A stretch of DNA of 64,000 nt from the NCBI RefSeq assembly GCF_000143415.4, contig NW_003314297.1, positions 907,430 to 971,429 of the forward strand. The letters are read 5' to 3'. A program made the translations under genes and the position numbers. The stretch's first letter is position 1; every line of letters begins with the position of its first letter. The notes under the pieces are model-generated. The model was not told where the DNA came from and ran no database searches. It saw only the letters and a program-made list of their open reading frames with translations. Shown here piece after piece: positions 1-64,000 of the stretch. This stretch comes from Selaginella moellendorffii. Its lineage: Eukaryota; Plantae; Lycopodiophyta.

Positions 1-770
1 ACTGACATATCTACTGGCCACACAAGAAATTGTCCTAGATGCTAGAATGTTGAGTTGGAGAACTTTTAACAATACTTCTGGACAATTGCTTTAGAAACAC
101 CAAAATGCTCTATCAACCTAGCAAAAGAATCACCTAAAGCTAATCTCTATAAAGCAATGGCAACTTGCTTACCAACAAAAACATATCTAGATGGAATGTT
201 TTTCAAATTTGGAGGGAATGCTATTTGCATTGACAGAGCAACAAGTTTGCAGATTGTTATGAACTACTCCTTAGAAACTTTAAAGAACTCTATCTACCTT
301 GTTGGATAATAATAAAAAATGAACAATAAAACAATTAAGATGTTGCACAAAGCTGAGGAAGCATTGTATATCAATCATACACATTGGAGTAGGGAACTTT
401 AAAACATTTATAAGTTTGTTAGAATTAACTTACAAACCCTCACAAGAAATGTAGTATATAAAATAAAAAATGTTTTTGGACCCAAACACATACTTTGATT
501 ACTCTAGATTCAAACTGTCACCAATAACTCATACAATTCAAATGGTGTACCTAAAGTGATTTTAAGAACATTCTCCTTGGTTATTGGTACCTACTAGTAT
601 TGAGAAATAAAATTTAACTTGGTGAATCAATGGCTTTTCCCTAAATAATTTAAAAGCTCGACAATGTAAGAAAGAGGGTATATATACAAAATAGTCATAT
701 CAATTAATGGATGATAATTAATATAAAAATGAATACTACCATTAGGTTTTATTACAAGATGAGATTTAAA
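1..770 (+). pseudogene. Highly decayed retrotransposon pol (RNase H/integrase-like) relic
   Basis: AT-rich with no long ORF. Only faint motif remnants (RMLSW, LVPTS) resemble the RNase H end and integrase start. Confidence 0.25.
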
Positions 771-777
771 TGCTTAA

Positions 778-3073: not shown

Positions 3074-3248
3074 TGTGAGTGCATGGAATATGGAAAGGGA
3101 ATACAGAAATGTGCATATCAATTAGCCCAAAAACCTTAGCTTATATACAGGAGCGAGTGGTCCGGATTGAAACCAATCTGATGGCTACCAAAATCCCACT
3201 ACGCTAATATTAGTATACGGCATCGTAGCCGTACACTTGGCCCTCACA
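3074..3248 (-). repeat. 3' LTR of the gypsy element
   Basis: Direct repeat of 7896-8070 and 63556-63730; TG...CA ends; next to the PPT. Confidence 0.97.
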
Positions 3249-3280
3249 TCATCCCCTCCTCTCGGAATAATGAAAGACCA

Positions 3281-6200
3281 TTAGGGTTCTCTTGTAGATG
3301 GGCCGGGATCTAGAGGAACATCAGGAGGAGGCATCGGTGGATCTGTAGGTGGCATTAACTGCTCCTGATCCCTTTGTACAAAGCGTTTCAGCCGCTGCAC
3401 ATGCACAATCTCTGGAGGATCGGCCTGCTGAACGTCATGCTGAACCTCATAAACTTGTGGTCCAATTTGCCGCAACATCTGATACGGTCCTTTCCATTGC
3501 GCAAGAAGTCCCTTAGATAAACCACGTACCGTAAAATGGGGAAAACGGACTAACACCAAATCATCCACTTTGTACTCCGCAGGTGGACGATGATGAGAGT
3601 TGTAGCGCCGTTGTTGTCCTACTTGTACGCGGCCTAAGTGTTCGGCAGACTCTGCTCGGACTAGTGGAAGAATGCTTGTCAAATACTGATCCCACGACCT
3701 AGCATCGGCAGCTCGTGGCAATCGCGAAGGTAAACCCAGCTCCATTGGTAATATTGGATCATGACCATATAGGAGTTTATATGGTGAAGCACCAACAGAA
3801 CTTTGCACCCCCGTGACATATGCATACCGAAGAGATGGCAAATAACCATCCCAATCCGAATGCTGAAAGTTCACATACTTCGCAATCATCCCTTTGAATG
3901 TCCGAACGAGCCGCTCCACCAAACCATCTGATTGTGGATGATAAGCACTCGTGAAAGTGTGGCGTATCCCCAACCGAGACGTCAAAACATGAAATACCTT
4001 AGCCATAAATACGGGACCATTATCCGAAAGAATCCACTCTGGACAAGAATGCTAGAACACCACTCGATTGAGGAGGAAGTAGCCAATAGCAGTTGCAGAG
4101 GCACTAGCAAGAGCACCAACTTCCACCCAACGAGTCAAGTAGTCAAAAGCAATAATAACATACTCATTGCCAGCAGTCGACCGTGGAAAAGGTCCCATAA
4201 GATCAAACGCCACCAACTCAAACGGACGGGAAACCGCAATTGACTCCAACCGTCCTTCCGCAGCACAAGGGGGAGTATTACGAGCTTGGCACCAAATGTA
4301 GTTACGCACATACCGGATAACATCACGTCGCATCTCCGTCCAGTAAAAAGACCTGCGCAGCTTCTCGGTTACACGACGGTGTCCCATATGCCCATCTAGA
4401 ACAGGAGAATTATGGTAGGTATGGAGAAACCGTGGAATAAAGACAGAAGGTACCACCAGCCGTAAATGATCCTCAGGATCTGTCCTCACAAAATAAAGAA
4501 GGCCATCTTCAAGGCGATATTGAGAATGTAAATGCCGGAAAGGCAAGTCATTAGCAAGTGATGCAGGATTCTCAAACCCATCTCGAAGCCTTTGAATCCA
4601 TGGCTCAATCTTTTGAGCCTCGCGAACAGCATCAAGAGAAGGTAGATCCTGCTCTGCACCTTGTGGACACTGAACGTCAAGGATAGCAACCGCCGACGGC
4701 ACAGAATCCTCGTCTAGAAAATCCACAGAGGCTAGAACAACAGGCTCGTCAGAAACATGAGAAGTGAGTGAAGAAGGAAGAGGAGCTCGAGAAAGGGCGT
4801 CAGCATTAGCCATAGAACTCCCTAGGCGATGAACAACATCAAAATCATATATCTAAAGCTTCAAAGCCCACCGAGCAGTACGACCAACCAGGTTCTTCCG
4901 CTTCAATAATGAAGTAACAGCAGCATGGTCACCTTCAAGTAACATCCGAGAACGATGTAGATATGTATGAAGTTTCTCGAAACCCCAAACTGCTACTAAA
5001 CACTCCTTTTTCGTCATGGAGTAGTTCATTTCCGCTGGTTGTAATGTACGGCTTATATATCCAATAGGATGGCGCTGACAAAGCACACTCGAGCTCTCTT
5101 ACATCAACACACCTCCAAAACCAATGTCAGAAGCATCCACGTGCAAAATAAAAGGTCGAGTGTAGTCAAGATATGCCAAAACTGGAGGAGTCGTCAATAG
5201 CTCTTTGAGATCCCCGAACGCTCGCTCACAATCCGGAGACCAGATGAAAGATGATGTTGATAACTTCAACAATGCTCGCAATGGTGCAGTGCAATCAGAA
5301 AGATGATCCACAAAACGACCGAGATACTGCACCTTGCCCAAGAAGCGCTGCACATCATTCACATATTTTGGAGTAGGGAACTTTAGAACAGCCACAAGTT
5401 TGTTAGAATCAACTTGCAAACCCTCACGAGAAATACGGTACCCAAGATAAGTTGTATCCTTGGACCCAAACACGCACTTCGACCGCTTCAGCTTTAAACC
5501 AACATCGCGTAGCCGATCCAACACTTTACAAACATCATGAACGTGCTCCTCCCACGTCCCCTCCAAGTGAATCAAGACATCATCAATGAAGTCGGCAGTC
5601 ACCTCTGGGATATCACAAAGAACCTCGTCCATCATCCGCTGAAAAGTTGCGGGAGCGTTGTTCAAACCAAACGGCATCACCAAAAACTCGTACAAACCAA
5701 ACGGTGTACGAAAAGCAGTCTTAGGAATATCTTCTGCGGCCATTAGTACTTGCCAGTACCCAAAAGCAAGATCTAGCTTGGTGAACCAACGACTTCGCCC
5801 TAGACGATCCAAAAGATCAGCAGTGTGAGGAAGAGGGTACACATCCGGGATCGTCACTTCATTTAACGGACGATAGTCGATGCAGAAACGAATACTCCCA
5901 TCAGGTTTCGTCACAAGATGAGGTTCACATGCCCAAGGACTCTGCGACTTCCAAATAACACCCTTCTCCAACATCTCCTTGACGTTTGCACGTAAAATCT
6001 TGATCTCCTTGGGTGACCAACGACGAACAGGAACCTTGATTGGACGAGCATCCCCGGTTGGAATCGGATGACGTGTGGCAATCTTGGCCCCAGACGATAG
6101 GTCAAAATCAAAGAGATCAGAATACTCCTTCATGAGCTGATCAACAGCTGCAACACAAAGATCATCGGAGGGATCAGAAAAGGGAAGAGCAGAACAAGAT

Positions 6201-6750
6201 GGAAACATAGGAGGAAATAGTGGGGGAACAAAAGTAATGGAAGCAGAGGTAGAAGTAAAGGGACGAAGAGGTACGGAAGTGAGAGGAATGGATGAAACAT
6301 AAGGAAGTATGAGACAAGGGGGAGAAGCCTGGCATGATTGTGCTGCAACTAATCCATACCAAGAATGAGGTCAAAAACTTGACTCGGCACCACCCGCAAC
6401 GACTGCAACTCAAGCTCGAGATCGCCCACACACACAACCAGGTCCGCCTCATCTCGTGCACATGCATGGGTACAGCCGTTGCCATAAAGAATGAAAACTG
6501 GATCCGCCGCACGACGCAAGTGTAGACGACAACGTGTGGCAACAGGTCGAGCAATAGAAGATAAACTCGAACCTATATCAACCAACACGGAGGGAATAAT
6601 AAGAGACCTCTTGTTATAAAAACGAGCTTGGAAAGTAAACACTGGATGAACTGGTGCTGAGTGAACCCCTCAATGATACTCCCAAAAGAAAGATGGAGGG
6701 GTCACTAACTTATTTGCACAAGATCCCTCCATTACTCGTGCGACTCCTCG
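3281..6750 (-). pseudogene. pol: pol (protease, RT, RNase H, integrase) with premature stops and one frame change between PR and RT
   Basis: Protease VLVDIGSSLSSI and ILGMD. RT RFCIDYRPLN, KTAFRTPFGLYEFLVMPFGL and FIDDVLI. RNase H LHVDAS. Integrase H..GHMG, AYHPQSDGLVER and WKGPY. Confidence 0.95.
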
Positions 6751-6756
6751 TTTCCC
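6693..6756 (-). promoter_or_regulatory. Predicted -1 programmed ribosomal frameshift signal (slippery heptamer plus H-type pseudoknot)
   Basis: G_GGA_AAC in gag phase, an 8-nt spacer, stem 1 GCACGAG/CTTGTGC and stem 2 ATGGAGGG/CCCTCCAT. The -1 frame is the protease frame. Confidence 0.8.
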
Positions 6757-7664
6757 GGATGCACCTTGGTGTCCAAACCTTCCACCGCAGCAGCACCAAC
6801 GGGACGTTGCTAACGCCAAGGTCTCCTCCCAAGAAATGGAGGTCGCCAATCCGGAAAGCGCTGACAACGCCAATAAGTATGACTAACTTCATCACATATC
6901 CAGCAACGAACATCACGGCCACGACCACGTCCTTGCCCTTGTCCTTGGACTCGAGTAACAGTTGCATCAACCTCCATTGGAACAGGACCATCACTCATAG
7001 GAAGTGGAGCGGAAGGACGTGTAGCGAGAAGTGGAAGAGGTGACGTTTCATAATGTTGTGCCAAGCGAAGAGCATCGTTAAGGGTGGCAGGAGCAAGTGC
7101 ATGCACAAGGCTGACAAGGTCTTGACGAAATGTTGGCCACAACATTCCTAGCTTGATTCGCTCCGATATATTGGGCTTCGCATGAAGCAAAAGACTTCGG
7201 AAACAAATGCCAAATTGCATCACTGACTCAGATAGCCCTTGGCGAAGACGATGCAATTGTTGGAAGGCATCGTCACAATCGTCGGCATGTCTGAAGGTGC
7301 GTTTGAAGACGTCCGGAAGAAGACTCCAATCCCCACGAGTGGCCGCACTCAATCCATTGTACCATTACAATGCCGTCCCTTGGAGACACGTGGGAAACTC
7401 ACGCAAACGTCGAGCATCATCCCAAGAATGATATGTGGCAATCACCGTGAAGTGATCGAACCAATGGTACACATCATCCCCAGGATTCCCACGAAAAAAC
7501 TCCGACCGAACGTGAGGATTGGCACCAAGAGCAGGAGGAGTTGGACTACGTGCCGTGAATGCCACCATCAATTGAGTTTGGTTGTTCAATTGCAAACGCA
7601 TAGCATCAAGTAATTGGACCAACTATTGCTCTAGAGTCAAAGGAGGAGATTGCTAATCTGCCAT
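6732..7664 (-). pseudogene. gag: gag with CCHC zinc knuckle; several in-frame stops
   Basis: ATG at 7664; ORFs 7365-7622 and 6810-7352 share a frame. Motifs LRQGLSESV and CWICDEVSHTYWRC. The frame ends at TAA 6732-6734. Confidence 0.9.
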
Positions 7665-7895
7665 GAAGATGGACGAAGAAAGAGCAAAAGAAGAGGAACG
7701 ACAAAAAAGCTAGAAGGAAATGGTAAATCTAAACAATGCAAAAAGCTAAATCTAAACCAAAATCCTGAAAAGAAAGAACAAAAGAAAGGAAATGGAAAAA
7801 GCTAAATCTAGACGATGCAAAAGCTAGATCTAAACCAAAATCCCAAATCCAAGCACTCTTCAGGGACAATCAAAGATGCCCCTCACCTCCACCAA

Positions 7896-8070
7896 TGTGA
7901 GTGCATGGAATATAGAAAGGGAATACAGAAATGTGCATATTAATTAGCCCAAAAACCCTAGCTTATATACAGGAGCGAGTGGTCCGGATTGAAACCAATT
8001 CGACAGCTACCAAAATCCCACTACACTAATATTAGTATACGGCATTGTAGCCGTACACTTGGCCCTCACA
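7896..8070 (-). repeat. 5' LTR of the gypsy element
   Basis: Direct repeat of 3074-3248, followed on the minus strand by the PBS (7875-7894). Confidence 0.97.
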
Positions 8071-9968: not shown

Positions 9969-10016
9969 GCACCAATGCTGAACTTCGAAAGCCCATCGGA
10001 GCTGTAATAGAGAAGT

Positions 10017-10863
10017 ATGGCTGGAAGCGGCAATCTCCCCGTGCTCGTTCTTCTTCTGTTGGCCTCGTTATCCTGTGAGAGAGATCTCCACTTGTATGTT
10101 ACAGTCGATTCTAACTCGGACTCCTGTTCTTGCAGCTGCTCACGCTGCCGTCGTCGAGGTTTGCCATGCTGACCTCACCTATACCGATTGCAGCAACTGC
10201 TGTAGTCTGAAGAAAGGTTGTGTCTACCTGCAACCTGGTTCAGGACAAGTCACTTGCATTGGCGGTGATTCAAGGGCTTGTCCCCGGAACTGCCAAGGTC
10301 CGAAGTTGACCGTATGCCCATTGCCTTCATCAGGATTCCCAAAATCAGGCATCAGGGTGCTCAAGGGAAAACTCCCACCCCCACGACCTCGATGCGGTTA
10401 CTACAACATCGTTAACGGTGACCCCATCCGGCGGCTGGAGCAGCAGGGGACAGATCAAGGTAGTAACCGCCTTGTTCATTATGTTCAGGAAGCCCAGCCC
10501 TCCCCGATAGAGCTCATGGCAAGAATGAAGTGCAAGCTTGATTCGATTGTGGAGGTCTGCAATGCCGAGGTCTCCAAAGATAACTGTGGTTGCTGCTTTG
10601 GAAAAATCGGTTGCATCTACTTGGAGAATGCATCCGCAAACAGCACCTGCCTGCGTGCTGACGGCCCCATAGGGATTTGCCCCCGCATTTGCCTGTCCAC
10701 AGTGGCCATCTGTACTAAGTCTGTAGCTCTTCAGGGCACCACTCTGCAGTCTTGCAGGAATGCACGCCGCAGCTGCGAGGACATGAAAAAGGGCTGCAGT
10801 CTCTACGATCGCAAAACTGGAGCCGATCTTTGCGCTGCGGGGGGTATCGCACTGCCTGTCTAG
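10017..10863 (+). CDS. Secreted Cys-rich multi-repeat potato type II (Pin-II, MEROPS I20)-like proteinase inhibitor; exons 10017-10074 and 10136-10863
   Basis: Signal peptide MAGSGNLPVLVLLLLASLSSAHA is split by a 61-nt phase-1 GT-AG intron. CSNCCSLKKGCVYL...C.G...ACPRNC...VCP matches the Pin-II pattern CTNCC...KGC.Y...C.G...ACPRNC...CP. A second repeat reads CGCC..KIGC..C..ICPRIC. Confidence 0.8.
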
Positions 10864-17221: not shown

Positions 17222-20200
17222 TGTAGCATATGTGGTTTTCACCCTTTATCCTATGGTGATTTATATCAAATAACCACGTAACAGAATATAAACTATCTAT
17301 GTATCACATGTCATATGCCATGTGCTACATACCGTATATTTAGGGACAATAGAGCATAACCTAAATTTCAAGGCTTTAGACCACTGAATGAAGGAATGAA
17401 GCCAAACTCTTAAGCATGGAGCCAAGAAGTGTAAAAATTAGAGCACCTAGTGACTCTTAAGTGTATAGCCTAAGGAGCGAAGGGACAAAAGCACAAAACG
17501 ACTTGAAATAGTCCTAGAGCATCTAGCATCACAATGCTAAGACAAACATGCAAAATGGAGCTAAATAGAGTTTTGCGCTATTTCAACATACTAATGGCCT
17601 AAGATGAGGATATAAGTACTCCATCAGTTAGCATGGTGTGGAATTTGGGCTTAAATCTAAACTAAATGCAAAACAAAAATACGCACATAAGCAAGAGCTA
17701 AACTATGCCTCAGGTTGATTGACCATGCCTGACTTACCCACTATCCCTACTATACATTTGAAACCCCCCACCCCCCTCTGAAGAACGCATGCTTACTAAG
17801 AGTTAGTCTCTGGGACTAACTTGAAACTTATTAAATATGAAATGGTGCTAGATTGAGAATTTGGATACAGGACCAACACCATGGTGTTTAGAACAATCTT
17901 TACATTCTGTTAATATGCCAAATTAGCAAATCTAAACATAACTTTTGAAAAAATTCATAATATTCACACTTTGTGAGAAATGCATCAATTTAAATGAGTT
18001 AGGGTAACCTCTTTATTTAACGTAAATGCGCTACATTGAAACACCTTTTGGCCATCACCAACAAGGAAATGACCAACAAAGTTAGCCACCCTTGTTGCTC
18101 TAGGTGTCACCTAGTATACAAAAGATGATAGCCCATGCTTGCATGTGGCATAGAGAGAGAAGCTAGAGGCTTCAACCTTTATAAGCAAAGAAACCAAATC
18201 TATTAGTAAAGTTTAGATAAACTATTGTAAATAGGCAATTAAAATTATTTACATGGTTATATCATTTTTAACAAAATAAAGAACATCAATAGAGAGGCAA
18301 ATGATGTGATCAGTCGATAGTAACTACCCCATGACTAAAGATTTCACTATGCACATGAAATGCCAAAACCATTCTGCCTATACTAACCCAAACTCAAAAA
18401 TTAATAAATGAACAATATTAAAGTTAAAGATAATGATATATGAGAGACTTAATTATTAGTGAATAGATCTTAGATTATAACACAAAATTATTCTAAGTAA
18501 GTTATCATCAGATAAACCAGTATTAGAGTACAAGAATCACTAAGATCATCAGAATTGGAAAACATATGATTCACCATCCAAAAATATTCAATAATAAGAG
18601 TACCATTAAGAACACCTAATGATAAAACTTAATTATCAAATATTGCAGATAACATGTTAAACAACTTATGTAAGATAACTCAAAGAACACAAAGTATTAT
18701 CGATTGGCAAGAAAAATGTTCATAAATGTATCATCCAAAGGAAATAACATTTAGTCTATCACAACTAACCATAGCAACAATCAACAGAACTAAATGAATG
18801 TAGCAAAACCAACAAACACTCATTCATGTTAATTATTGTACTAGCTAACTTGAATAGATCCCAATTAACAATACGAAAGAATTTAAATTGCTTAAGTAAG
18901 CATTAACAACATCCTATCAATATCTCCAACCCAAAAGACTAAATCAAAGTAAACCACAAAAAACATGTGGTAATGCAAAAAGCTATAAGCCATAAAAATG
19001 AATAAGTAACTATTATGAAAGAGCATTAATCATCCCATCAATGAAGAGATGCATAATCATTATTAAAAAAACAATCCACCATCTCGAAGTAAATCATTCT
19101 AGATCAATAATAATTAAGCAAAATCTGTGATAAGGATAATTAACTATCTTAGACAATAGTCAATCCTTACTAATGATTGCTAGATGCAAATACTAACTTC
19201 AACATCGAAACTAATGAGCTAAAATGCTTTTCCCAACAACTCCTAACAAATGAAACAATGAGCATGAAAACTCAAAGAACCAAAAGATTGAAGAAGTTTA
19301 TAGCCGATTCTCACTTAATAATGATCACAAGTCTTGTATGAACTAACTTCAATGTTAAAAAAGAAATTATAATATAACCTATAATATTCTTCTCAACACA
19401 TCCAAAGGTTAAGCTTTATGATGCCAAAGCTAATAAAGAGCATTTTTTCATCAATCTAAAAGTCAAGCATAACAAAGTTATGCTCAACAAGTGACCACCA
19501 ATTCGATCCTCCATGAACCCATCTATGCATAATAAAATGTAACTCATTTTATAACAAGTACAAGAAGAATCATCAATGATCGATACATCCTTAGCTTAAA
19601 TCTAACAAGGAACCAACATTTAAATATCGATCACTAACTCTTCCCTTTGTAAAACTAGTATAGTCCATAACTAAATCACTTTTCAAGGAAAAGCCAAAGC
19701 TCAACCCCTACTAAATAATCTTGTCTAGAACACAACTAACTTAATTTGTTATTTAGTTTATTTAAATGTCAAAATAGTTGCTAACTAGCAAATGTATGAA
19801 TGCTAATAACATAAAGCTACAGCTAAATCATTAACAATATCTATATTGAGATTAATGAAATTTAATATCAATTCTATGGAGAGATATCTTATTTCACTCT
19901 AATCTTAATATCAATAATATTAACGACAAGGCATTACTTCATTGCTATCAATACAAAACAAAGTTAATAGAAAACAAGAGTGAATCACCACCCAAAACTC
20001 TTTAACAACCAAGCTAACAAAAGTTGAAGATACCTTACTCAATATCCAAGATTAAACCTTTAACAAAACTTAATTACAAATAACACATAATCAAGGAGTG
20101 ATTTATCACATCTAAGACTCAATGTAATCCAACACTATGGACTAAACAAAACCAAATGGTATTAACACTGGTAGACTTAATATGCCAATATAGAAAAACC

Positions 20201-23068
20201 ATGTAAGTCTAACGATATGATCCTTTGCAACACCATTCGGTAAAGCAAATCTATCATTGCTAAATCAACATCGAGCAAAACAAGTGTCAATAGTCCTCAA
20301 CAAAGTTTACAAGCAATCACTAGTTGCAAAGTAGCTAATAATCACTTTTTCAACTTATTTTTATAAGACCTAAACACTAAACTCACATCATCAAGTTGTA
20401 TATTTGTCTAACGAAAAGGTACACTCCAGGTATTAGATATAAGAATATAGACAAACACAAATTAAATGACTACTTGAATCTAATTATACAATAATAAGCT
20501 CACTAACACATTTAACCAACAGATCTGAGCATTAGCTATGCATGATTAACAATCAATCGTAACTAAAGTGAAAATTATGAAATAGACTTATATTGATACA
20601 CAACCTCTTTATAGACAAAGCTATAGTATAAGTACTAATATCTCAACCTCAAACAACTAAGTTGGACATCACCATCCTTAACTAATGTGCACGGATACCA
20701 AATCCAAGTCAAAATCAATGAAATCTCACTACTCTTATAAAGTCTAACAAATATAAGGTGTAACTTGCCACCAAACACAATACTACAAAAGAAAGACATA
20801 ATATTCACCTTCCTAAAAAAGCACAACAACCACTTTTCTACAACTCCAGACTCTATCCAACTCAATTGCCTTAACCTCAAAAGTTAGCATCCTTTTTAGG
20901 TCGCATCATACAAACTACCTACTAAGGTTTAAATTAACCAAAGTCAACTTTAACCTTTTCATTATTTTATATTGGCTTACAAAAATGGAATAGTTTTCGA
21001 GCAAAATGAATAGCCTTTAGAAAAGTTTAAGAAAATTTATAGAAAATTTCCATCCAACAGAAAGAATGACTCTCAATTTNNNNNNNNNNNNNNNNNNNNN
21101 NNNNNNNNNNNNNNNNNNNNNNNNNNNNNNNNNNNNNNNNNNNNNNNNNNNNNNNNNNNNNNNNNNNNNNNNNNNNNNNNNNNNNNNNNNNNNNNNNNNN
21201 NNNNNNNNNNNNNNNNNNNNNNNNNNNNNNNNNNNNNNNNNNNNNNNNNNNNNNNNNNNNNNNNNNNNNNNNNNNNNNNNNNNNNNNNNNNNNNNNNNNN
21301 NNNNNNNNNNNNNNNNNNNNNNNNNNNNNNNNNNNNNNNNNNNNNNNNNNNNNNNNNNNNNNNNNNNNNNNNNNNNNNNNNNNNNNNNNNNNNNNNNNNN
21401 NNNNNNNNNNNNNNNNNNNNNNTCTACTCCAGTACTAATGGATAAATCAATAAATCATAGCAAGTGGATACTATAACCTTTTTTAACATCTAATGGGTAA
21501 ATTCACAAAGACCAAGGTACCAACTCAAGATTAACATAATGGACCACTATTAAGAATTAAGTCTAAGCTACTTCAATGTTATTACTTGCAAGTAGACTAA
21601 CTTCATTATTAACCACTTTGGGGTTGATTATAATTTAACCATACAACTTTATAAACATATTGCTCACTATCTCATGGATATAATATAAAAATCACAATGA
21701 TTTAATTATCAATTGAGCAACACCACAAGAAACACTCATATCACTACTACAAAGGTTTACGTGAGTATCAAGTGTTAACTCGATTTGACAAAATGCAACA
21801 TAAATACCACACACCGCTAATAGAGATTTACAACATCGATACCACCAACTTTTATTCACAATACGGATAAATTCATGGCACTCTCTATCCAACCAAATTC
21901 AAAACTAATCCAACACTAAGCTACTTAAGGAGCAATAGCAAAGTTCTCCCGAAAAGAATTAAACATTGTAACCTAAACCTTTCAATAGCAAGCCTAAGTA
22001 AAATAGTTTAATGCTCCACTGCTATACATCCCATGACTCACCACTTGTAAAACCATCATAACTAATATGCATCAAGATGGGAACTCTCGATTGCTGTAGC
22101 GCACAAGCAATGAGTTAACACCTTGTTGCAAACCATCTCTCCAAAAAGAGAAAATGAGTTATATGTTTGATCCTTTGTCCCTGATAATTTTCTTTTCGGA
22201 CTCTACTTTGACTAAACCTCACATTTGCATTTGCATTGCCTTTAGTCCAATCCAAGAAAAGTTTATAGGAGAGCTTATCAATGACTACTTGAACTAATAG
22301 ACTAATCTCTATAGTCTTGATTGATCCACTTATAATTATGTTTAGGAAGGATCCATTAGTGCTATGCTAAACAACTATGGACTAGCCTATTTGCCACTCT
22401 TAGCAAACCTAGGAAGGTTTACTTTTACCCACAATACATAGTTCAACTCATGGCAATAATTAATAGGCTAACATTAATTCTACCAACTTAGAGTGTAACC
22501 TTGAGTTGCTAATATGTCTCACTCACAAGCCCAAGCGCAAACTTGTGCAAATGGAATATCCCAATCCTTCTTATGAGCCAAGCTCATATAATATAGTACA
22601 AAACAGTAATCAAATCCATACTCAAAGAATGAATGTAAAGTATTAGCACCCAAACATATACCCACTCAAATCATCATTTTCATCTTTATGTATGTAACAA
22701 GAGTAGTTGCCCAATCTCATTAGATAATACTCGCTAAGAGTCATCCTTTTATACCAAATGTAATGCATTGGTTTTCACCTTTTATCCTATGGTGATTTAC
22801 CATAGGATAACCACAAAATAGAACCTAAACCATCCATATACCACGTGTCATTAACCACATGTCTAGAGTTAGTGGAGCGGAATTTGAGTTTCAAATATTT
22901 AGGGTATTGAATGAAAGAACAAAGCTAAACTCTTAAGCATGGAGCTAAGGAGTGTAAAAATTGGAGTATGGAGTGATTCCAAAACATACATCCCAAGGAG
23001 CGAAGGGACAAGAGTATAGAGTGACTTGGAATAGTCCTAAAGCATCTAGTATCTCAATGTTAAGACCA
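17222..23068 (-). mobile_element. Older, degraded family-A non-coding LTR element
   Basis: LTR starts at 17222 and 22759. The internal region is collinear with ~36870-41735, with a PBS remnant before 22759. The first LTR is deleted at ~17940 and the second breaks at ~23068. Confidence 0.88.
21080..21422. other. Assembly gap
   Basis: Run of N. Confidence 1.
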
Positions 23069-27600: not shown

Positions 27601-28618
27601 AACTAGTATAGGTAAAACAAGTGTTTGGTTTGTAGGGAAATTAAAATTACCATCAAAGGGTAAAGGTTGTAAATTTTGCTTTTCTTCCTTTTATGGGGAA
27701 TCATTCTAATTGTTTTGTGTTCCACTACTCTTAGTTGAAGTAAAGGCATTTTCAATGTGTTGATGCTGCCAAGGAGGAGTAACATATAAATTCAAGTATT
27801 CTAAATGACTGTCAAAGTCATATTAGGATTTCTAATCTCCTATTTATTGAGGTATACCCAATATGCTTTTAACTCACTCTCTTTCAAGTTTTTCTTTAGC
27901 TTGATTAAGTAATGATTTATTTGTTCTAAAGGGAGGTTAAGATTGCAAATATCATGAGCACGTGCTCTGTAATCTCATTCTAAATCTTGTGAATACTTCT
28001 TTTCAAACTGTCTTCCGCTCATTATATTGTGAGAGAAATGTTGTATATCTATTACCTTATTTGGTATAACAATGACAATTTTATGTATAGGGACTATATC
28101 TTTTAAAGCTTTATAAGTAAGATCAATTGTTAGTCTATGCTTATATATTCAGAAGTTTGTTGGCATTGCTACTATGGCAAGCCTAGTTATTATACCTCGT
28201 TCATGGAGTAAATGGTACAAAGTTTTGGTATGAAATGTTGTTATGAGACATAAATCCCTAAGCCCCAAAGTGGAGCCAAAAAGGTGCCACATGGTAGTGG
28301 CCGAAGCAAAAGCCAAACGAGCGTAACATGTTTGGAATAAAAGCTTTAACTTGAAAAGTTGAAAGCAAATATGGAACTCCCAACAAAGTGCTCAAGGAAC
28401 AAGCACGAAGCAAGCAATAAGTGAGTCTCTAGAAAAGGGACATAAAAGGACTAACACATAATACGTGGGAGTGTCTGAGATGGAGTCTGAGAAGGAGTTC
28501 AAGATAGAGTCCGAGATGGAGTCCGACAAGGAGTCCGAGATGGACCTAAGATGGAATCCGAGAAGGAGTTTGAGATGAGTTCACCAAGGACTCCGAAATG
28601 GAGTCTGAGATGGACCTG

Positions 28619-28718
28619 NNNNNNNNNNNNNNNNNNNNNNNNNNNNNNNNNNNNNNNNNNNNNNNNNNNNNNNNNNNNNNNNNNNNNNNNNNNNNNNNNN
28701 NNNNNNNNNNNNNNNNNN
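28619..28718. other. Assembly gap (100 N)
   Basis: Run of N inside the LTR minisatellite. Confidence 1.
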
Positions 28719-28826
28719 GGGGGGGGGGGGGTTCCAAAAGTATAGTAGGGAGAGTGTGGGGGTTGGACCTTAGTGGAGCCAGTTTGGCCAAGAAAGGCCA
28801 ATTTGGCCTAAGAAAGCCATACCTAG

Positions 28827-30484
28827 TGTGAGACACAAAATCCCTAGGCCCCAAAGTGGAGCCGAAAGGGTGCCATGTGGTAGTAGCCGAAGCGAAAGCC
28901 AAACGAGCGTAACACATTTGGACTAAAAGCTCCGACTTGAAAAGGTCAAGAGTGGGAGTGGAACTAACAACGAAACACTCGAGGAACGAGCACGAAGCGA
29001 GCAATAAGCGAGGTTCCAAAAGGGGACCCAAAAAGGACCAACACATGACACGTGGAAGTGTCCGAGATGGACCCAAGTTGGGGTCCGAAGTGGAGTCCGA
29101 GATGGACCTGAGTTGGAGTCCGAAGTGGAGTTTGAAGTGGAGTCTAAGATGGACCCGAGTTGGAGTCCGAAGTGGAGTCTGAGATGGAGTCCGAGATGGA
29201 CTCGAGATGGACCCAAGATGGACCTGAGATGGAGTCCGAGATGGACTCGAGATGGACTCAAGATGGACCTGAGATGGAGTCCGAGATGGAGTCCGAGATG
29301 GACTCAAGATGGAGTTTGAGATGGAGTCCGAGATGGAGTCCGAGATGGAACCGAGATGGAGTCCAAGATGGACCCGAGATGGAGTCCGAGATGGAACCGG
29401 GACTGAGACCGAGACTGAGACTGAGTCCGAGTTTGAGTTCGAGTCCGAGTCTGAGTCTGAATACTAATACAGGCAATTGGGTGAAAGCCCAAAGCAATCG
29501 TCCCCCAGGGGGGGGGGGCTGCGAGGGGTTCCAAAAGTATAGTAGGGAGAGTGTGGGGGTTGGAGCCTAGTGGAGCTAGTTTGGCAAGGAAGGTCCAGTT
29601 TGGTCCAGGAAGACCATGCCCAGTGTTGGGTGATGAACTGACCACTGGGAAGTCCAAGATTAGAGTGAATATGGACTGACAAGCGGGGTAGCTTGGTGAA
29701 GTGTTCAAGAGCCGGCTCTAGTTCCCCCGGGAGATCGACTGGGCGATGCTCCCAGTCCAAGTGTGGGTGGCACTACCTACTTGGATACCTGGCATGGCTC
29801 AACAGAACCTCGCTCTAAGCCCATGGCTAGAGCACCTAAAAGCGAAAGGCGGGGAGAGTACCCATGCGGCTTGCGTAAGGCCACGGTGTTCCAAAATGTT
29901 GTCCCAAAGTCCCAAACAGTGAAAGGGAAGAGGAGTCGTCCTCTAGTGCAGTGACCAAGGATACGGTCACATGGTGAGAAAGTCCCAAAGGATAGTGGGA
30001 CTTAGAGGTCGGGCCTACAAGCCTTGATCTAATGGCAGTGTTGGCGAACATGGCCATGGACAAAAAGGGACTTGGTGGGGACTGAAAAAGAGTTGTCGGG
30101 GAAGGTTATTCCCTATGTCTGCGAGCATCCTAAAGATGCTAAGGAGTAGATCTGGGATGATCACTCATGGACGAATGGCCCAGTCTTTGAGAGACAAGAT
30201 TATGACGTAAGTGGCGTTAAACCACTGGTGTGACCAAGGTGAATGGGCATGGCCTTAGCGTAACGAGCTGATATTTTGGGGGTACCTTGGGGTGTCGGTC
30301 ATGGGATTAGACACGTGTAGCACTTGGACCAAGTGTAAAGGTTGAGTGGCATGGATGCCATTCTTGGGGCTAGCATGCCCCAAGTTCTAATTGGGACTTA
30401 TGGAGGTTGTGAATGAGACTCCTCCAAGTGGTCGGAGGTGCGGTTAAGTGACTAAAGTAAAATGGAAAAAATTAGTCGCTTACA
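28827..30484 (+). mobile_element. Family-B solo LTR (1658 bp) nested in a family-B LTR
   Basis: TGTGAG...CTTACA flanked by TSD CCTAG (28822-28826 and 30485-30489). Confidence 0.9.
29059..29460 (+). repeat. LTR-internal minisatellite: 11/12-bp GAGATGGAGTCC/GAGATGGACCC units, then 6-bp GAGTCC/GAGACT units
   Basis: Directly visible; also present at 28470-28618 and 34822-35190. Confidence 0.92.
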
Positions 30485-33400
30485 CCTAGCTATTGGGTGA
30501 TGAGATAATCACTGGAAAGTCCAAGGCTAAAGTGAATATGAACTGACAAGTAGGGTAGCTTGGTAAAATGTTCAAAAGATAGCTCTAGTTCCCCTGGGAG
30601 ATCAAATGGTCGATGTTCCCAATTTAAGTATGGGTGGCACTACCTACTTGGATACCTAGCATGGCTCAACAGAATATCGCTTTAAACCCATGGCTACAGC
30701 ACCCAAAGGCAAAAGGTGGGGAGGGTACCCATGAGGCTCGCGTAAAGCCACGGTGTTCCAAAATGTTGTCCCAAAGTCCTAGACTATGGAAAGGAAGAGG
30801 AGTAGTCATCTGGTGTAATGACCAATGATACGGTCATGTGGTGAGGAAGTCCTAGAGGACAGTGGGACTTATTAGTCAGGCCTGTGGGCCTTGTCCCAGT
30901 GGTAGTGTTGGTAAACACGGCCATGGACAGAAAAAGGACTTAGTAGGGACTGTAAAAGGGATATTGGGGAAGGTTATTCCCCATTTCTGTGAACATCTTA
31001 AGGATGCTAAAGAGTGGATCTAAGATGGTCACTCATGAACGGATGGCCCAATTTTTGAGAGATGGGACTGTGATGTAGGTGGTGTTGAACCGCGGGTGTG
31101 ACCAAGGTGAGCATGGCCTTAATGTAATGGGTGTATGTCGGTGGTACCTTGGGGTGTCGGTTATGGGATTGGACACGTGGAGCACTTGGACCAAGCGCAA
31201 AGGTTGAGTGGCATGGATGCCATTCTCAGGGCTAGCAAACCCCAAGTCCTGAACTGGATGTGAATGAGACTTCTCCAAGTGGCCGGAGGTGTGGTTAAGT
31301 GATTAAAGTAGAATGGAAAAATTAATCGCTTACAATTTGGTATCAGAGCTGTTCCTTAGTTTGACTTTTATTGGTGCTCAAGTATATCACTACTTGTATT
31401 GGTATTGGAAGGTCTGAGGAGTGGCCCTATCCTTAAGGAGTAGTAGGTCGGGAGGATATGGCTCTCCACTATAGTTCACGCGTGAACTTGTAGGTAAGGT
31501 GGTGGGTAAAAAAGGGCTAATAAGGGAATGATTTTGGGATCTTGGGAACAGTATAAGGTTTTCCTTAGAGAGCTGAAGATGTAATTCAGATAAGCATTTG
31601 ACTTAGTAAACTAGCTAATATAGTTGTGGTAAACAACTATAGTTGGGATCATGGGAAAGATAAAAACTCCAAAACAATAAAGAAGTCATAAGATTATCCT
31701 CATATAGTTGAGGTTGGTGCTCATGAATTTGAGACCAGAATTAATAACCATGGGAGGTCAAATACAGAAGAGGACATAAGTCCTTGAAATGGTAGCCGGG
31801 GCTACTCTTAATAAATGCTAGAACAAAGGATTGGGGGTGTATTTAGAGGATGAATTAGTATTTTCATCACATGGACAAATAGTCTTAATGGGCAAAGGTA
31901 GCTCTTATAGAACAAAGAATAATCAAGTGTCGAAGTAACACTTGCAAGAATGGTCCTTATAAGTATGACATGAATACAAAAAGTTGTATTCTAACGAGCT
32001 AGCACCTCAAAAATGGGACTTTTTGGAATGCTTATTGCCAAAGAAAGCCATCATTGGGACACCCAAACATTTTAAAACATTAGGAAGTGGTGTTTGGTGT
32101 TATGAGGGCATTAGATAAAGCCTAAGAGACTAAGTCTTTAATGAATGATGGATAGGAGGTGCTATTCAAATGTCTAAGATTGCAGAGATGGAAAAAATCC
32201 ATCTACCTAAATTAGACAAAGTTGAAAAGGGATTTTGGCAAGGCTAGTGATGGGCATATAAAGGCCCATAAGTAGTAACGTTAATCTTGATGTGTGGGAT
32301 TACAAGGTGAGTATACCTGGATTAAGGAACCACTCCCTAATCTATCAGGTAGGTTCATCCTTATGAATACTTACTAAGGCATGGTAGAAAGTGCAAAGGT
32401 ATCTTCTTAGTCTAGAGGAAAATAACCGAAGGAAACATATGAGGCCAAAAAGCAAGTAATAAAAGGATAGTACCGAACCATAGGAATCGAAGGGCATAAC
32501 CAAGGGTGGTTATGCAAATTAAGAGTGGAGAATCAAGTGAGGGGCTCGAGTGGTTTGTTATTAGCAACCGTGATGCCATAGAGAGTCTAAATATGGAATT
32601 ATCCATGTTAGACCATATGGTAATTAAAAAGCTTGCAAAAAGAAGAAGCCTTAGCAAGACAATTTTGGGTAGATAAGTACCTAAAAAACCAAGTGTATAT
32701 AGTTCATAAAGCGCGCGAAATCAAAGTGGTGCAGTAGAAGCATGGTCTTGAAGCTTGCCATGAGGCAAGGTTATCAAAGTTAGGGAAGTAGTTCCCAAGT
32801 GTTCAAAGAGAAGGCTTTGAACAAAAATCGATAGTTAAGGACTTTCACACTTGTGCATGAACCATGTTACAATGGTCAAATGACTTGTTATGTGAGATTG
32901 GCAAGTCGGGGGAACAAATACCCTAGTTGAAGGTGTTAACTTCAAAAGGGCTAAGCATGGAGAGAGGACTTGGCAATGTGGAAGAACTAAGTTCCTAAGC
33001 TGTGTAGCGCGCTTTAAGTATAAGTTGGTGCATTGGCGTGGGGAGTTACGCTAAGCATCTTGTGTGATGCCGTCCGTAGATGTATATACGGAGGTTGGGT
33101 TCGAGTCCTAACCCTTTAGTGCTTGGGTTCAAGTCCTAACTCACTAGGGCGAGGTGATGGTTTGGAATATAAGGACACTCATTTTTCGGTGGTTATGGAC
33201 TCTTAGTAAGGAGACTAGCTTGGGCACACTGCCAAGCGAGGGATGCCCTAGAGTTGTGATGCACGGTTATATTACTTAGTGTGAAAACTTAGCATATCTA
33301 ACTTGAACACTTTAATGCAAGTGGCACCAAGGACATGGTGAATAAAATAGGGACACTCAGTCTCAGTTGTTATGGACCCTTGGCTGGAAGGGTTGGCTTA

Positions 33401-35229
33401 AGTGCACCCCCTTGGGGTCATGGTCAACAGCTTAAAGGTTTGGAAGGCTTAATACTTATTGGCAAACCTGTTAAGGTGCCAAGATGAGATCACTACACGA
33501 TCTTGTGGCTAAATAAGGATAAAGTCCTTGTTTGGGTAATTAATAAGGTTCTTAGTTCAAAGTATTGATTTAAACTAATAATAATGGTATGGCTTGGTCA
33601 AGGTGACCAAGTGGGAAGAACACTTAAAGGAAATGAGCTATGTCAATGTGATGGCATAGTGAGTCCAAAGAAGGTAATCTCTAAGAGAGACCCATAAGAG
33701 GGTCACAAAGTTGTGCCGTGGATGGGGCCCATAGCAGAAAATGTTAAAGAGACCTACTAAGGGTGAACACCCTCTGGACTTAGCAAAGTGGAGCTTTTGT
33801 CATGGAACCAAAAAAATACCTCAAGGATGGAGGTAGTGATCCTATGTTGCTTGGTGCAATAATCAATAGATAAGAGCAAAAGACTAATGGCTAAGAAAAA
33901 AACCATGGGAATCATGGGATAGAACCCAAATGGCAAAGTTAAGCTAGAACCATTAATATGTTGGATGCTAACGAATTGTGGGAAGGTAATGTATTTCCAA
34001 GGATGGATTCCTAATTGCTCCGATTTAGCAAAGGTGGAAGCTCCAAGGGAGGAAGTAGTAAGGTAGCAAAATAATAAGGCCATGGATAGCTCTAACATAG
34101 ATTATGATAACTAGAACTTAATGCCAAAAGTGGCACAAAATAGAAAAGAGGATGATGGTGCCCTTGAATAAATAACTTCCTAAGATAAGGAAGTGGAGTT
34201 GCAAAAAATGTGCAATGCAAAATGTTGGAGACACCCAAGAAATTGACTTTGAGAAGTCAAAATTAAAAGTTCCAAAGTGCAAAGGTTACATCAATGGGAA
34301 TTGAGAATACTTGACAATGAGTAGTGGGATTAAGATAGAAAAAATGTCTCTAACAAGTTTAATGAAAACTAAACCAATAAAAGGAGATAACCACCACAAA
34401 TGGTTGAATGAGTCTCTAAATTGAAGAGATTATGCTCCTTAGAGGATGGACAAGGCATGGTGAGCCTTCGGTGTCAAACCATTAACAAATATTGACTAGG
34501 TGCCAAGGATGGAAAGGGTAATACATAGTATTACTTTATAAATAGTTTATCGTTTGATGAGGACATTGAACTTCGTCTATGGGTGGTGGAATTGTGAGAC
34601 ACAAATCCCTAAGCCCCAAAGTGGAGCCGAAAGGGTGCCACATGGTAGTGGCCGAAACAAAAACCAAATGAGTGTAACACGTTTGGACTAAAAACTCCAA
34701 CTTGAAAGGTCGAAAGCGGGAGTGGAACTCCCAACAAAATGCTCAATGAACAAGCATAAAGCAAACAATAAGTGAGTCTCTAGAAAAGGGACACAAGAGG
34801 ACCAACATATGACATGTGGGAGTGTCCGAGATGGAGCCCAAGAAGGAGTCCAAAATGGACCCGAGATGGAGTTCAAAATGGACCCGAGATGGAGTTCAAG
34901 ATGGACCCGAGATGGAGTCCAAGATGGACCTGAGATGGAGTCTGAGATGGAGTTCGAGATGGATCTAAGATGGAGTCCGAAATAGACTCGAGATAGAGTC
35001 CGAAATGGACCCGAGATGGTGTTCGAGATGGAGTTCGAGATGGACCCAAGATGGAGTCTGAGATGGAGTCCGAGACAGACCCAAGATGGGGTTCGAGATG
35101 GGGTCCGAGATGGAGTCCGAGATGGACCAAAGACCAAGACTGAGATCGAGTCCGAGTCCGAGTCTGAGTCAAAGTCCAAGACTGAGTCCGAATATTAATA
35201 CAGGCTGTTGGGTGAAAGCTCAAAGCGAT

Positions 35230-35645
35230 TGGATTTATTTAGCGATGTCTATTAGCCCAATTATCAATCTTAGGCAAAGAAGCTATTATGGGAACTTTAA
35301 TGGTTCACAATAAAGCTTAGATACTCATAAGTAAAAATACACTTGTTGTATAAAATTTTAACAATTGTTTAGTAGGCAAAACTTTATAAATCCTTTGTAA
35401 GTTATAATACTTAGGATTTGTGTCTAACTCGGATAGGCAGACTATTTCCTTGTCTAAGAAAAATCCTAGTACTATTTTTTTTTTTATATAGATAACTCCA
35501 TAGATATAAATCTTGCTTATACTATGTACCTACAAAGTATTCTAAATGTATTATCACACCTTCTTTCACAATAGTAAAGGTATTAGAACACTTCTATATA
35601 CCTTGAGCAAATTATTATTAAGTATCTCACTTGGTAATTCGTCAA
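35230..35645 (-). pseudogene. Decayed integrase-like relic, continuation of 42800-44300
   Basis: Joined to 42800+ through the GTCAA TSD; only faint motif remnants. Confidence 0.35.
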
Positions 35646-42799: not shown

Positions 42800-42804
42800 G
42801 TCAA

Positions 42805-52638: not shown

Positions 52639-52781
52639 TATTTGAAAGGGATCGAATATACTCTGCATTTCCCGCCAACTTACGTCACCTAATTCCGCCA
52701 AATTTAAATTGGAAGCATATGCATTTAGGGCAGCTTCTAAATTCCAGGGTTTGCGAGGGAGCCGACAGCATTCTCACAGCG

Positions 52782-62295: not shown

Positions 62296-63555
62296 TTCTC
62301 CTTTGCAAGCCTCATCAGAAAGATGTGTTTCTTTACTAAACTCACAGTTTTTCTGAAGACCCCTGGCTTGTTTTGCTTGGAACGCGGACTGAAGATACTG
62401 ATTGCCGTGACGCTATAAACAACTGCTAGGATCACCATGATGCCATGATGTAATAGGATCAAGGATAGTTTTGTACCTTTGTAGAGCCATCAGAAGGCTA
62501 GCTCGCATAGACGTGTTTATGTCTCTTTGGTGACACCAGACGATACAGAGAAGACTAGCATGGCCTCCGCACAAGAAATGGTCATCTATCTTGCTAGCTT
62601 TTTCTTTTCGTTTCGAAAGAAAAGTTTCAAAACCTGGAATGGATTAGAAGGGAAACAGGAGAATTTGTTGCTGAATATTCCATCTGTGAATCAACAATAA
62701 GGGCAAAAGGTGTGAAGCTGTATCGATGAGAATTGATGATATCATTGATGTGGTTTGGCCATGATTTGTATTCCAGGAAGATCACCTCTTTTATTTTGTT
62801 ATTTTTTTCATTTTTTTTTTCTAAACCAACTAATAAAAATACATTGACCACAAGCATACAACAAAGATGAACAAAACTTTTAGCACAACCACAATGGTTG
62901 AGTTTAGATAAACAAATCTTTAGACAGTCATTTATTTGCCTTTTTTTGTTAATTTAAGTTTAATGCATGATTTAATTCAATTTTGTAAGGTGTTTGATTT
63001 AAAAGATGAGTTGAACATTGTGAATTATTTACATTTTTCAAGTTCATTTTCTATTAAAAATGCAAAATTTCTTTTTACATTTTCTGCTATTGCACTCAAA
63101 ATAACTGTTAAAAGTATTAGTTTTGTAAAATTTAAATTTATCAAATTATATTTATGTCTATTAGTTTAATAATAAAACACACAAAATAAAAATCACAGTG
63201 ATAATTCTTTTATACTAAATTCTTTAAGAAAAAAGTAAGATTCCAAATACTTAATTTTTATATTTAAATTTTTAATTACATAAAATAAAAAATTATTAGA
63301 CCCCTTTACCCAAATAATAGGTAAATCCAACCAAAATGGGTTCATGTCATATAGTGTTGGGCCATTTCCTAAGCCGCGTTACACCTAGAAAATTCAAGAT
63401 TTAAAATAATTTTTTCTATTGGACAAAAACTTTAATTTTATTCTTCACTTTATTTTTTTTAAAGATGTAACTAAATATTTTTGTGCAAAAGTATTATATG
63501 CTAAATAATCAATTGATTGAAAAATTTGTATACTCATATTATCATTACTCCACAC

Positions 63556-64000
63556 TGTAAGTGCTTGAAATATGGAAAGGGAATACAAAAATGTGCATAT
63601 CAATTAGCCCAAAAACCCTAACTTATATATAAGAGCGAGTGGTCCAGATTGAAACCAATCCGACAGCTGCCAAAATCCCACTACGCTAATATTAGTATAC
63701 GGCATTGTAGCTGTACACTTGGCCCTCACATCATCCCCCCCTCTCAGAATAATGGAAGACCATCAGAGTTCTCTTGTAGACAGGCTGGGATCTGGAGGAA
63801 CATCAGGAGGGGGCATCGGCGGATCTGTAGGTGGTATTAACTGCTCCTGATCCCTTTGTATGAAGCATTTCAACTGCTACACATGCAAAATCTCTGAAGG
63901 ATCGGCCTGCTGGACGTTATGCTGAACCTTATAAACTTGTGGTCCAACTTGCCGCAACACCCGATATGGTCCTTTCCACTGTGCAAGGAGCCCTTTAGAT
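63556..64000 (-). mobile_element. Second copy of the 175-bp-LTR gypsy family (3' LTR 63556-63730 plus integrase end), running off the window
   Basis: Collinear with 3074-~3520. Confidence 0.95.

What the first reader, a model, noticed from the sequence alone, without database searches (positions are those of the whole stretch)
6693..6756. -1 ribosomal frameshift cassette (slippery site plus H-type pseudoknot) at a plant Ty3/gypsy gag-pol junction
Seen on the minus strand, in order: G_GGA_AAC (6756-6750) in gag phase; spacer GAGGAGTC (8 nt); GCACGAG; TA; ATGGAGGG; AT; CTTGTGC; a 15-nt loop; CCCTCCAT. This gives a 7-bp stem 1 (one G-U) interleaved with a perfect 8-bp stem 2. The gag frame stops five codons after the heptamer, and the -1 frame is the protease frame (one TGA, plausibly from CGA, intervenes). 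Established: an X_XXY_YYZ heptamer, a 5-9-nt spacer and a pseudoknot is the retroviral and RNA-virus recoding architecture, whereas most plant LTR elements have a single gag-pol ORF. Inference: this family set its Gag:Pol ratio by pseudoknot-stimulated frameshifting.
Basis: partly seen in the sequence, partly recalled or inferred. Interest (0 to 1): 0.85.

Follow-up and report, generated by a model that had tools for sequence, protein, structure and literature searches.

The report
Frameshift signal in a spikemoss retrotransposon
A very abundant jumping-gene family of the spikemoss Selaginella carries a virus-style slippery sequence followed by a predicted RNA knot exactly where its two genes overlap, so it likely makes its enzymes by shifting the ribosome back one letter, a mechanism common in animal elements and viruses that my literature searches did not find described for a land-plant retrotransposon.

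Summary
The site lies in a decayed 4,997-bp Selgy-like Ty3/gypsy element of Selaginella. G_GGA_AAC is the only in-phase slippery heptamer in gag and sits in the gag/protease -1 overlap. The two-stem complementarity beat 2000 of 2000 shuffles and ranked first of 703 heptamer sites in the window. Thousands of family contigs show no indel at 4% or more across the junction, so the -1 offset is the family state. In distant gypsy relatives, 19 of 21 loci with a -1 overlap carry an in-phase heptamer (about 1.4 expected). -1 frameshifting is therefore likely (about 0.85). This copy is dead, with four gag-frame stops upstream, and the copy at 63556 lacks the junction. REXdb already lists overlapping gag/pol frames for Selgy; ten literature searches found no description of the signal. 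New member of a known kind.

The parts
7896..8070 (-). 5' LTR, 175 bp, TG...CA
   Evidence: 166 of 175 identical to the 3' LTR; 4-bp flanks CTGT/TTGT, 3 of 4 alike (inferred target-site duplication)
7877..7894 (-). Primer-binding site beginning TGGTGGAG, one base after the LTR; tRNA-Ala type
   Evidence: sequence; assignment to tRNA-Ala rests on the recalled G3-U70/A73 acceptor end, no tRNA was aligned
6732..7664 (-). gag frame with C-terminal zinc knuckle; broken in this copy by stops at 7655, 7625, 7367, 6812; natural stop TAA 6734-6732
   Evidence: Pfam Retrotrans_gag E 2.8e-4, below cut-off; ESM Atlas gag clusters at 0.95; start codon inferred
6750..6756 (-). Slippery heptamer G_GGA_AAC in gag phase
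   Evidence: only in-phase heptamer of 2 found in 7652-6732
6742..6749 (-). Spacer, 8 nt in this copy; 6 nt if stem 1 extends by two pairs, as the family letters at 6715 allow
6735..6741 (-). Stem 1, 5' arm
   Evidence: pair probabilities 0.99-1.0 in the nested ensemble
6716..6722 (-). Stem 1, 3' arm
6725..6732 (-). Stem 2, 5' arm; starts with an ATG (6732-6730) in the protease frame that overlaps the gag stop (TAATG)
   Evidence: 6731 reads another letter in 12% of X1 depth
6693..6700 (-). Stem 2, 3' arm, shared with the competing hairpin
6656..6709 (-). Predicted competing hairpin, exclusive with stem 2
   Evidence: -21.4 kcal/mol; 10 of 1000 shuffles of 6707-6659 fold as well, region chosen after the fact
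6349..6669 (-). Aspartic protease, -1 frame relative to gag; stops at 6672-6670 and 6351-6349 in this copy
5099..6370 (-). Reverse transcriptase and start of RNase H; in another frame than the protease in this copy
   Evidence: Pfam RVT_1 E 2.7e-32; frame map
3281..4852 (-). End of RNase H and integrase, no chromodomain found; stops at 5101, 4855, 4054 in the pol frame
   Evidence: Pfam Integrase_H2C2, rve, Integrase_p58_C
3074..3263 (-). Polypurine tract (about 3263-3249) and 3' LTR (3248-3074)
63536..64000 (-). End of a second copy (3' LTR and integrase C-terminus), 89% alike; junction outside the window

Best explanation
This is the gag-pol junction of a Selgy-like Ty3/gypsy retrotransposon of Selaginella, whose active members likely made Gag-Pol by programmed -1 ribosomal frameshifting at G_GGA_AAC, stimulated by a predicted H-type pseudoknot 6-8 nt downstream. 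Most ribosomes would read gag to the TAA five codons on and release Gag. A minority would pause at the structure, slip one base back and read on into protease, RT, RNase H and integrase, which would set a Gag excess. Shown: heptamer, phase, overlap, stem complementarity, the family-wide frame offset. Inferred: slippage, the fold, and its efficiency. The copy in the window is a decayed fossil of the signal.
For: (1) Position and phase: only in-phase heptamer in gag, inside the roughly 150-nt overlap. (2) Two-stem score -30.1 kcal/mol of stacking, 0 of 2000 shuffles, first of 703 sites. (3) Family state: 4382, 1961 and 109 contigs laid from X1, X3 and X20 on 6560-6900 with no indel at 4% or more; every A/T-site change and transversion at 4% or more in X1 is listed and none falls in heptamer or spacer. 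At the 1% level the G-U pair position 6720 shows no change. Family letters at 6739/6718 keep the pair, and those at 6715 allow two more stem-1 pairs. (4) Lineage: size, 4-bp duplication, PBS type and host match Selgy, for which 17 (65%) of the elements with readable coding layout are GAG:o:PROT-RT-RH-INT (PMC6317226, Additional file 5). The closest relative found, P0134 (55% RT identity; sister, support 0.999), is a protease-to-integrase ORF without Gag. (5) Of 91 distant loci, 21 have a -1 overlap and 2 a +1 overlap; 19 of the 21 carry an in-phase heptamer against about 1.4 expected, 4 of them GGGAAAC; 9 of those 19 have a pseudoknot reached by at most 1 of 200 shuffles. (6) G GGA AAC plus pseudoknot gives 22% frameshifting in PEG10 (PMC4598141 passages).
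Against: With 100 nt of context the nested fold pairs the stem-2 3' arm into a downstream hairpin: stem 1 plus hairpin -30.3 kcal/mol against about -24 for pseudoknot plus local fold, the latter from recalled penalties and rough. No independent covariation: the two-sided change at 6739/6718 (15% and 12% minor) is at CpG-decay levels and linkage could not be read. 12% of X1 depth mismatches stem 2 at 6731 with no partner change at 4% or more at 6694. Conservation inside the family is not informative: polymorphic sites (10-90%) were 3 of 41 in heptamer and stems and 22 of 215 in flanks, counting only the rows shown. C-to-T and G-to-A rows in the heptamer may be among the 48 rows not shown. A heptamer alone has about a 13% chance in an overlap this long (rate). 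No Rfam match. 7 of 19 relatives have no such pseudoknot and 3 a weak one.
Confidence: 0.6

Rival explanations
1. -1 frameshifting at the same heptamer, but the stimulator is stem 1 with the downstream hairpin (6709-6656), or an equilibrium between that fold and the pseudoknot.
For: Nested ensemble gives the hairpin pairs 0.97-1.0 (one pair 0.49); 10 of 1000 shuffles fold as well. Family letters at 6707 and 6658 stay pairable; only the pair at 6696/6671 is lost. Several relatives have a long stem 1 and weak or no stem 2 (L074, L085).
Against: ViennaRNA cannot represent pseudoknots, so the comparison is biased. Stem 2 is a perfect 8 bp in canonical geometry (0 of 5000). The hairpin region was chosen after the fact in GGAG/CCUC-rich sequence.
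Confidence: 0.25
2. Pol is made separately by termination-reinitiation at the overlapping stop-start TAATG (6734-6730), whose ATG is in the protease frame.
For: The overlap is in the sequence. UAAUG stop-start coupling is known from RNA viruses (recalled, not checked here).
Against: 12% of X1 depth lacks that ATG (6731). It does not explain the in-phase heptamer. Relatives show heptamers at the same place. Pol normally needs fusion to Gag for packaging (established, recalled).
Confidence: 0.06
3. A small intron across the junction joins gag in frame to the protease, as splicing does in other plant elements.
For: 127 GT-AG pairs of 45-300 nt would give an in-frame fusion. One joint (6650 to 6806) has intron-like ends. 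BARE1 uses splicing for Gag (PMC3735527 passages). Earlier AI notes report introns in another Selaginella element (unchecked).
Against: The best donors match 6 of 8 consensus letters or fewer; the top one cuts the zinc knuckle and the next loses its GT in 51% of X1 depth. The joint is one contig per run among 13 joints, 'between: not known', in DNA-type runs of one sample.
Confidence: 0.04
4. The offset is a decay indel of this copy and the heptamer and stems are chance.
For: The copy is broken in many places, including an unexplained frame change between protease and RT.
Against: No indel at 4% or more in family contigs across the junction; 0 of 2000 shuffles; overlap is the prevailing Selgy layout.
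Confidence: 0.03

Closest known systems
Selgy lineage of non-chromovirus Ty3/gypsy elements (Neumann et al. 2019, PMC6317226; seen: passages, Additional file 5 whole)
   Same: Selaginella host, mean 5044 bp (here 4997), 4-bp TSD, tRNA-Ala PBS, no chromodomain or extra ORF, gag overlapping PROT-RT-RH-INT in another frame.
   Different: The passages and table seen give neither the direction of the offset nor a slippery site or stimulator. No REXdb sequence was available to place this element on their tree.
PEG10 -1 frameshift element, derived from a Ty3/gypsy element (PMC4598141 passages; PMC5009743 passages)
   Same: Same heptamer G GGA AAC followed by a pseudoknot at a gag/pol-type junction.
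   Different: PEG10 is a domesticated mammalian gene with measured frameshifting (22% in that paper). Here the site is in a mobile plant family, untested, with a competing hairpin; no sequence homology of the RNA was tested or found (Rfam blank).
Animal gypsy elements with pol in the -1 frame (2003 survey as summarised in PMC5009743, passage; the survey itself was not held)
   Same: 28 of 51 animal elements had pol in -1, many with tandem-shift heptamers. My RT tree puts this element in a group (support 0.84) whose named members are mostly animal elements and that holds 8 loci with a -1 overlap.
   Different: In that survey only two plant element types had separate frames, both +1. This one is -1, in a land plant.
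Tcn1 chromoviruses of mosses and lycophytes (PMC6317226 Additional file 5; PMC2864245 passages)
   Same: Also plant Ty3/gypsy with two ORFs; 149 (60%) GAG:o:PROT-RT-RH-INT.
   Different: Chromodomain, self-priming, 5-bp TSD; offset direction not given in what I saw, so they may be a second plant case.

Membership tests
Selgy (REXdb) | Host Selaginella moellendorffii | tested here: met
   PPR-DYW protein at 60274-62295 falls in a 90%-identity cluster with a protein named S. moellendorffii SELMODRAFT_86236
Selgy (REXdb) | Length 4432-6724 bp, coding region fills the interior | tested here: met
   4997 bp; domain map
Selgy (REXdb) | 4-bp target-site duplication | tested here: inconclusive
   CTGT/TTGT, 3 of 4; a 5-bp reading fits worse
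Selgy (REXdb) | PBS for tRNA-Ala | tested here: inconclusive
   TGGTGGAG one base after the LTR; match to tRNA-Ala from recall, no tRNA aligned
Selgy (REXdb) | Gag overlapping PROT-RT-RH-INT in another frame; no chromodomain | tested here: met
   the protease-to-RT frame change of this copy was not tested in the family
Selgy (REXdb) | Clusters with Selgy on the RT-RH-INT tree (primary criterion) | not testable with these tools
   No REXdb sequences held; my tree has no Selgy, Phygy, Athila or Tat reference
-1 programmed ribosomal frameshift signal | X_XXY_YYZ heptamer in zero-frame phase inside a -1 overlap | tested here: met
-1 programmed ribosomal frameshift signal | Stimulatory structure 5-9 nt downstream | tested here: met
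   stem 1 starts 8 nt downstream, pair probability 0.99 or more; predicted only
-1 programmed ribosomal frameshift signal | Structure folds as an H-type pseudoknot | tested here: inconclusive
   complementarity above chance, but competing hairpin and no independent covariation
-1 programmed ribosomal frameshift signal | Signal and offset kept across the family | tested here: met
   short contigs from three samples, rare variants dropped
-1 programmed ribosomal frameshift signal | Transframe product made | not testable with these tools
   needs a reporter, ribosome profiling or mass spectrometry

The most novel reading that the evidence does not exclude
Selgy is an animal-type gypsy lineage living in a land plant that kept a two-state frameshift switch: a pseudoknot and a tandem-hairpin fold share one strand (6700-6693), so the element tunes its Gag:Pol ratio by RNA refolding. 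It would be the first -1 frameshift element described from a land-plant retrotransposon, and a conformational switch rather than a static knot.
Probability: 0.17. Interest if true: 0.65.

Novelty: new member of a known kind. Interest (0 to 1): 0.42.

Why it matters
How plant retrotransposons obtain excess Gag is a standing question, because most have one ORF (PMC3735527 passages) and the plant cases with split frames in the 2003 survey were +1. A -1 signal in Selgy fills in the mechanism behind a layout that REXdb tabulated without explanation. It offers a plant-genome-derived -1 element that is short and cheap to assay in plant extracts, and it suggests checking Tcn1 and fern elements. The mechanism itself is textbook and common in related gypsy elements, so it extends a known kind to a new host group and does not change the concept.

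Tried and rejected
No whole genome is held, so full-length copies could not be aligned. The second copy in the window lacks the junction, and a diverged RT fragment at 316-773 has no protease or gag match nearby. No RNA holder was listed; RNA run X21 gave 0 reads from about 12% of the run, which is no test. 6 of the 23 listed runs were laid (X1, X2, X3, X4, X20, X21). The cassette pattern had 0 matches in metagenome contigs. Close-relative scans of viral contigs found nothing. A Gag search among longer proteins found none; the full HMMER search gave 39 hits of 23-43% identity, none close. Rfam blank at E 5. I rejected the 6739/6718 change as covariation because both sites are CpG and the minor fractions equal those of other CpG sites. 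A 1-nt deletion at 6698 (0.1% of depth in X1, 5% in X2, same sample) lies after the gag stop and cannot fuse the frames. Of the 91 distant loci, 68 were set aside before the heptamer count: 25 with under 1200 nt upstream, 16 with a broken pol frame, 15 with one long ORF upstream of RT (550 aa or more), 12 with no overlapping long ORF; 2 more were +1. The 15 single-ORF loci show that related elements also use one frame. [quoted passage not shown] Earlier-finding look-ups by words and sequence were empty.

Full report
The observation. On the minus strand the sequence reads exactly as described: GGGAAAC at 6756-6750, an 8-nt spacer, stem 1 (6741-6735 with 6722-6716, seven pairs, one G-U), stem 2 (6732-6725 with 6700-6693, eight perfect pairs), and loops of 2, 2 and 15 nt. 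The heptamer is in gag phase, gag ends at TAA 6734-6732 five sense codons later, and the -1 frame carries the protease. Those sizes were taken from the site, so I rescored with a general measure, the best summed stacking energy of any two interleaved stems starting 5-9 nt after a heptamer. The site scored -30.1 kcal/mol, 0 of 2000 shuffles reached it, and it ranked first of 703 heptamer sites; it is also the only in-phase heptamer of two in 7652-6732.

The element. The site lies in a 4997-bp Ty3/gypsy element with 175-bp LTRs at 8070-7896 and 3248-3074 (166 of 175 identical), 4-bp flanks alike at 3 of 4 letters, a PBS beginning TGGTGGAG and a polypurine tract. Domain order is gag, protease, RT, RNase H, integrase, with no chromodomain hit. 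A host PPR-DYW protein of the window clusters at 90% with a named Selaginella moellendorffii protein. These features match Selgy in REXdb: 114 elements, 4-bp TSD in 96%, mean 5044 bp, tRNA-Ala PBS in 90%, and GAG:o:PROT-RT-RH-INT (different but overlapping frames) in 17 (65%) (PMC6317226, Additional file 5 read whole; passages). The primary criterion, tree placement among REXdb sequences, could not be tested; the five supplementary files held as text came to 17,418 characters and gave no Selgy sequences or element rows, so files I could not see may say more about the offset. The copy is dead: gag-frame stops at 7655, 7625, 7367 and 6812, a stop at 6672-6670 in the -1 frame, more stops in pol, and a frame change between protease and RT. 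The second copy at 63536-64000 holds only the LTR and integrase end.

Is the offset the family state? No assembly is held, so I laid public contigs on the junction. On 6560-6900, 4382 (X1), 1961 (X3, same sample) and 109 (X20, another organism label and study) contigs were laid at 80% identity or more, with no insertion or deletion at 4% or more. Differences are listed only away from the ends, which leaves about 6591-6869, from the end of the zinc knuckle to just before the protease active site. The stops at 6812 and 6672-6670 are not the family state (88-99% of X1 depth reads other letters). All A/T-site changes and transversions at 4% or more in X1 are among the rows shown, and none is in the heptamer or spacer; 48 further C-to-T or G-to-A rows were not shown. 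In stem 1 the pair 6739/6718 reads other letters on both sides in 85% and 88% of depth and stays a pair, and 6715 reads a letter in 91% that would add two pairs and shorten the spacer to 6 nt. A second lay at the 1% level (X1, X2, X20, X4; rows listed only for 6716-6731) shows no change at the G-U position 6720 and 12% of another letter at 6731 in stem 2, with no partner change at 4% or more at 6694. I do not count 6739/6718 as covariation: both are CpG sites, the minor fractions equal those of other CpG sites, and linkage cannot be read from these tables. Polymorphic sites were 3 of 41 in heptamer and stems against 22 of 215 in flanks, which is uninformative. Contigs are short and drop rare variants. 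RNA run X21 gave no reads, which is no test.

Relatives. The closest protein found, P0134 (55% identity over RT/RNase H, unnamed), is a protease-to-integrase ORF without Gag and is sister to the window's RT (support 0.999). It fits both the split layout and the reading that the protease-to-RT frame change of this copy is decay. An RT alignment fetched 91 distant loci of 30-47% identity. After setting aside 68 (25 too short upstream, 16 broken, 15 single long ORF, 12 no overlapping ORF), 21 show a -1 overlap and 2 a +1 overlap. 19 of the 21 carry an in-phase heptamer in the overlap against about 1.4 expected from their own gag background; 4 are GGGAAAC. Of these 19, 9 have a pseudoknot reached by at most 1 of 200 shuffles, 3 a weak one and 7 none. 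In a midpoint-rooted FastTree of 116 RT segments the element falls in a group (support 0.84) whose named members are mostly animal elements and which holds 8 of the -1 loci and 3 single-ORF loci; the named angiosperm proteins fall outside. The tree has no Selgy, Phygy, Athila or Tat reference and supports no claim of transfer. So the signal is of a type that is ordinary among related gypsy elements.

With more 3' context, the nested fold keeps stem 1 (pair probabilities 0.99 or more) but pairs the 3' arm of stem 2 into a hairpin at 6709-6656 (-21.4 kcal/mol; 10 of 1000 shuffles, region chosen after the fact). Stem 1 plus this hairpin gives -30.3 kcal/mol against roughly -24 for the pseudoknot plus local fold, using recalled penalties. 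ViennaRNA cannot represent pseudoknots and the estimate is rough, but the competitor appears to survive in the family with one pair lost. The gag stop also overlaps an ATG in the protease frame (TAATG), which allows a reinitiation reading; 12% of depth lacks that ATG. Splicing is formally possible (127 in-frame GT-AG pairs), but the best sites are weak.

Mechanism. Most likely, ribosomes translating gag pause with G_GGA_AAC in the P and A sites against a structure that begins with stem 1. A fraction slips -1 and makes Gag-Pol, the rest stop five codons later. I put -1 frameshifting at about 0.85: 0.6 with the pseudoknot as stimulator and 0.25 with hairpins or a two-state equilibrium. Reinitiation 0.06, splicing 0.04, decay 0.03. 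Sequence anatomy and the family offset are shown; slippage, fold and efficiency are inferred.

Known and new. G GGA AAC plus pseudoknot is the PEG10 signal, with 22% frameshifting (PMC4598141 passages). The 2016 review reports that in a 2003 survey 28 of 51 animal elements had pol in -1, while the only two plant types with separate frames were +1 (PMC5009743 passages, first 300,000 of 449,034 characters held; the survey itself was not held). Most plant elements have one ORF (PMC3735527 passages). REXdb lists overlapping frames for Selgy and Tcn1 without direction or signal in what I read, and SM-Tcn1 is described as two ORFs without a mechanism (PMC2864245 passages). Ten full-text searches (listings and abstract starts, apart from the papers named) found no description of a -1 signal in Selgy or another land-plant retrotransposon; the library lacks most subscription papers. 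Frameshift elements that switch between folds are known in viruses (PMC12002268, PMC10602861; listing and abstract start only). Verdict: a real, previously undescribed as far as searched, member of a well-known kind; interest 0.42.

Noticed in passing
window 6350-6130 (-): Protease and RT are in different frames in this copy, with the change inside a pyrimidine-rich linker. Likely decay, since P0134 and REXdb have them in one ORF, but not tested in the family.
   Followed up: partly
proteins P0239, P0258, P0262, P0268, P0243: Distant stand-alone Gag homologues end in or near EN or GN dipeptides, as slippery heptamers would encode; one member of the nearest Gag group (P0243) is from the fern Ceratopteris richardii. 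A lead for -1 signals in ferns; no DNA seen.
   Followed up: partly
loci L025, L027, L056, L060, L063: A group of related metagenomic gypsy loci has G_GAT_TTT directly before the gag stop; L027 and L056 have pseudoknots reached by 0 of 200 shuffles.
   Followed up: partly
window 316-773 (-): Fragment of a second, diverged RT (47-55% identity to this element), with no gag or protease match nearby.
   Followed up: partly
window 9982-10863 (+): 293-codon cysteine-rich frame with internally repeated motifs and no Pfam hit at E 0.01; resembles potato type II proteinase-inhibitor repeats (recalled).
   Followed up: no
window 17232-23068 versus 35644-42802; 28241-35229: Large degenerate repeats (about 77% alike, strong strand skews); six-frame read-through of 36400-41801 and 29500-34601 gave no Pfam hit. 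Probably heavily mutated transposons.
   Followed up: partly
window 51900-62412: GC-rich host gene cluster with short introns: Hyccin-family and PPR-DYW genes, and frames resembling homocysteine S-methyltransferase and a GH9 endoglucanase (recalled from the translations).
   Followed up: no
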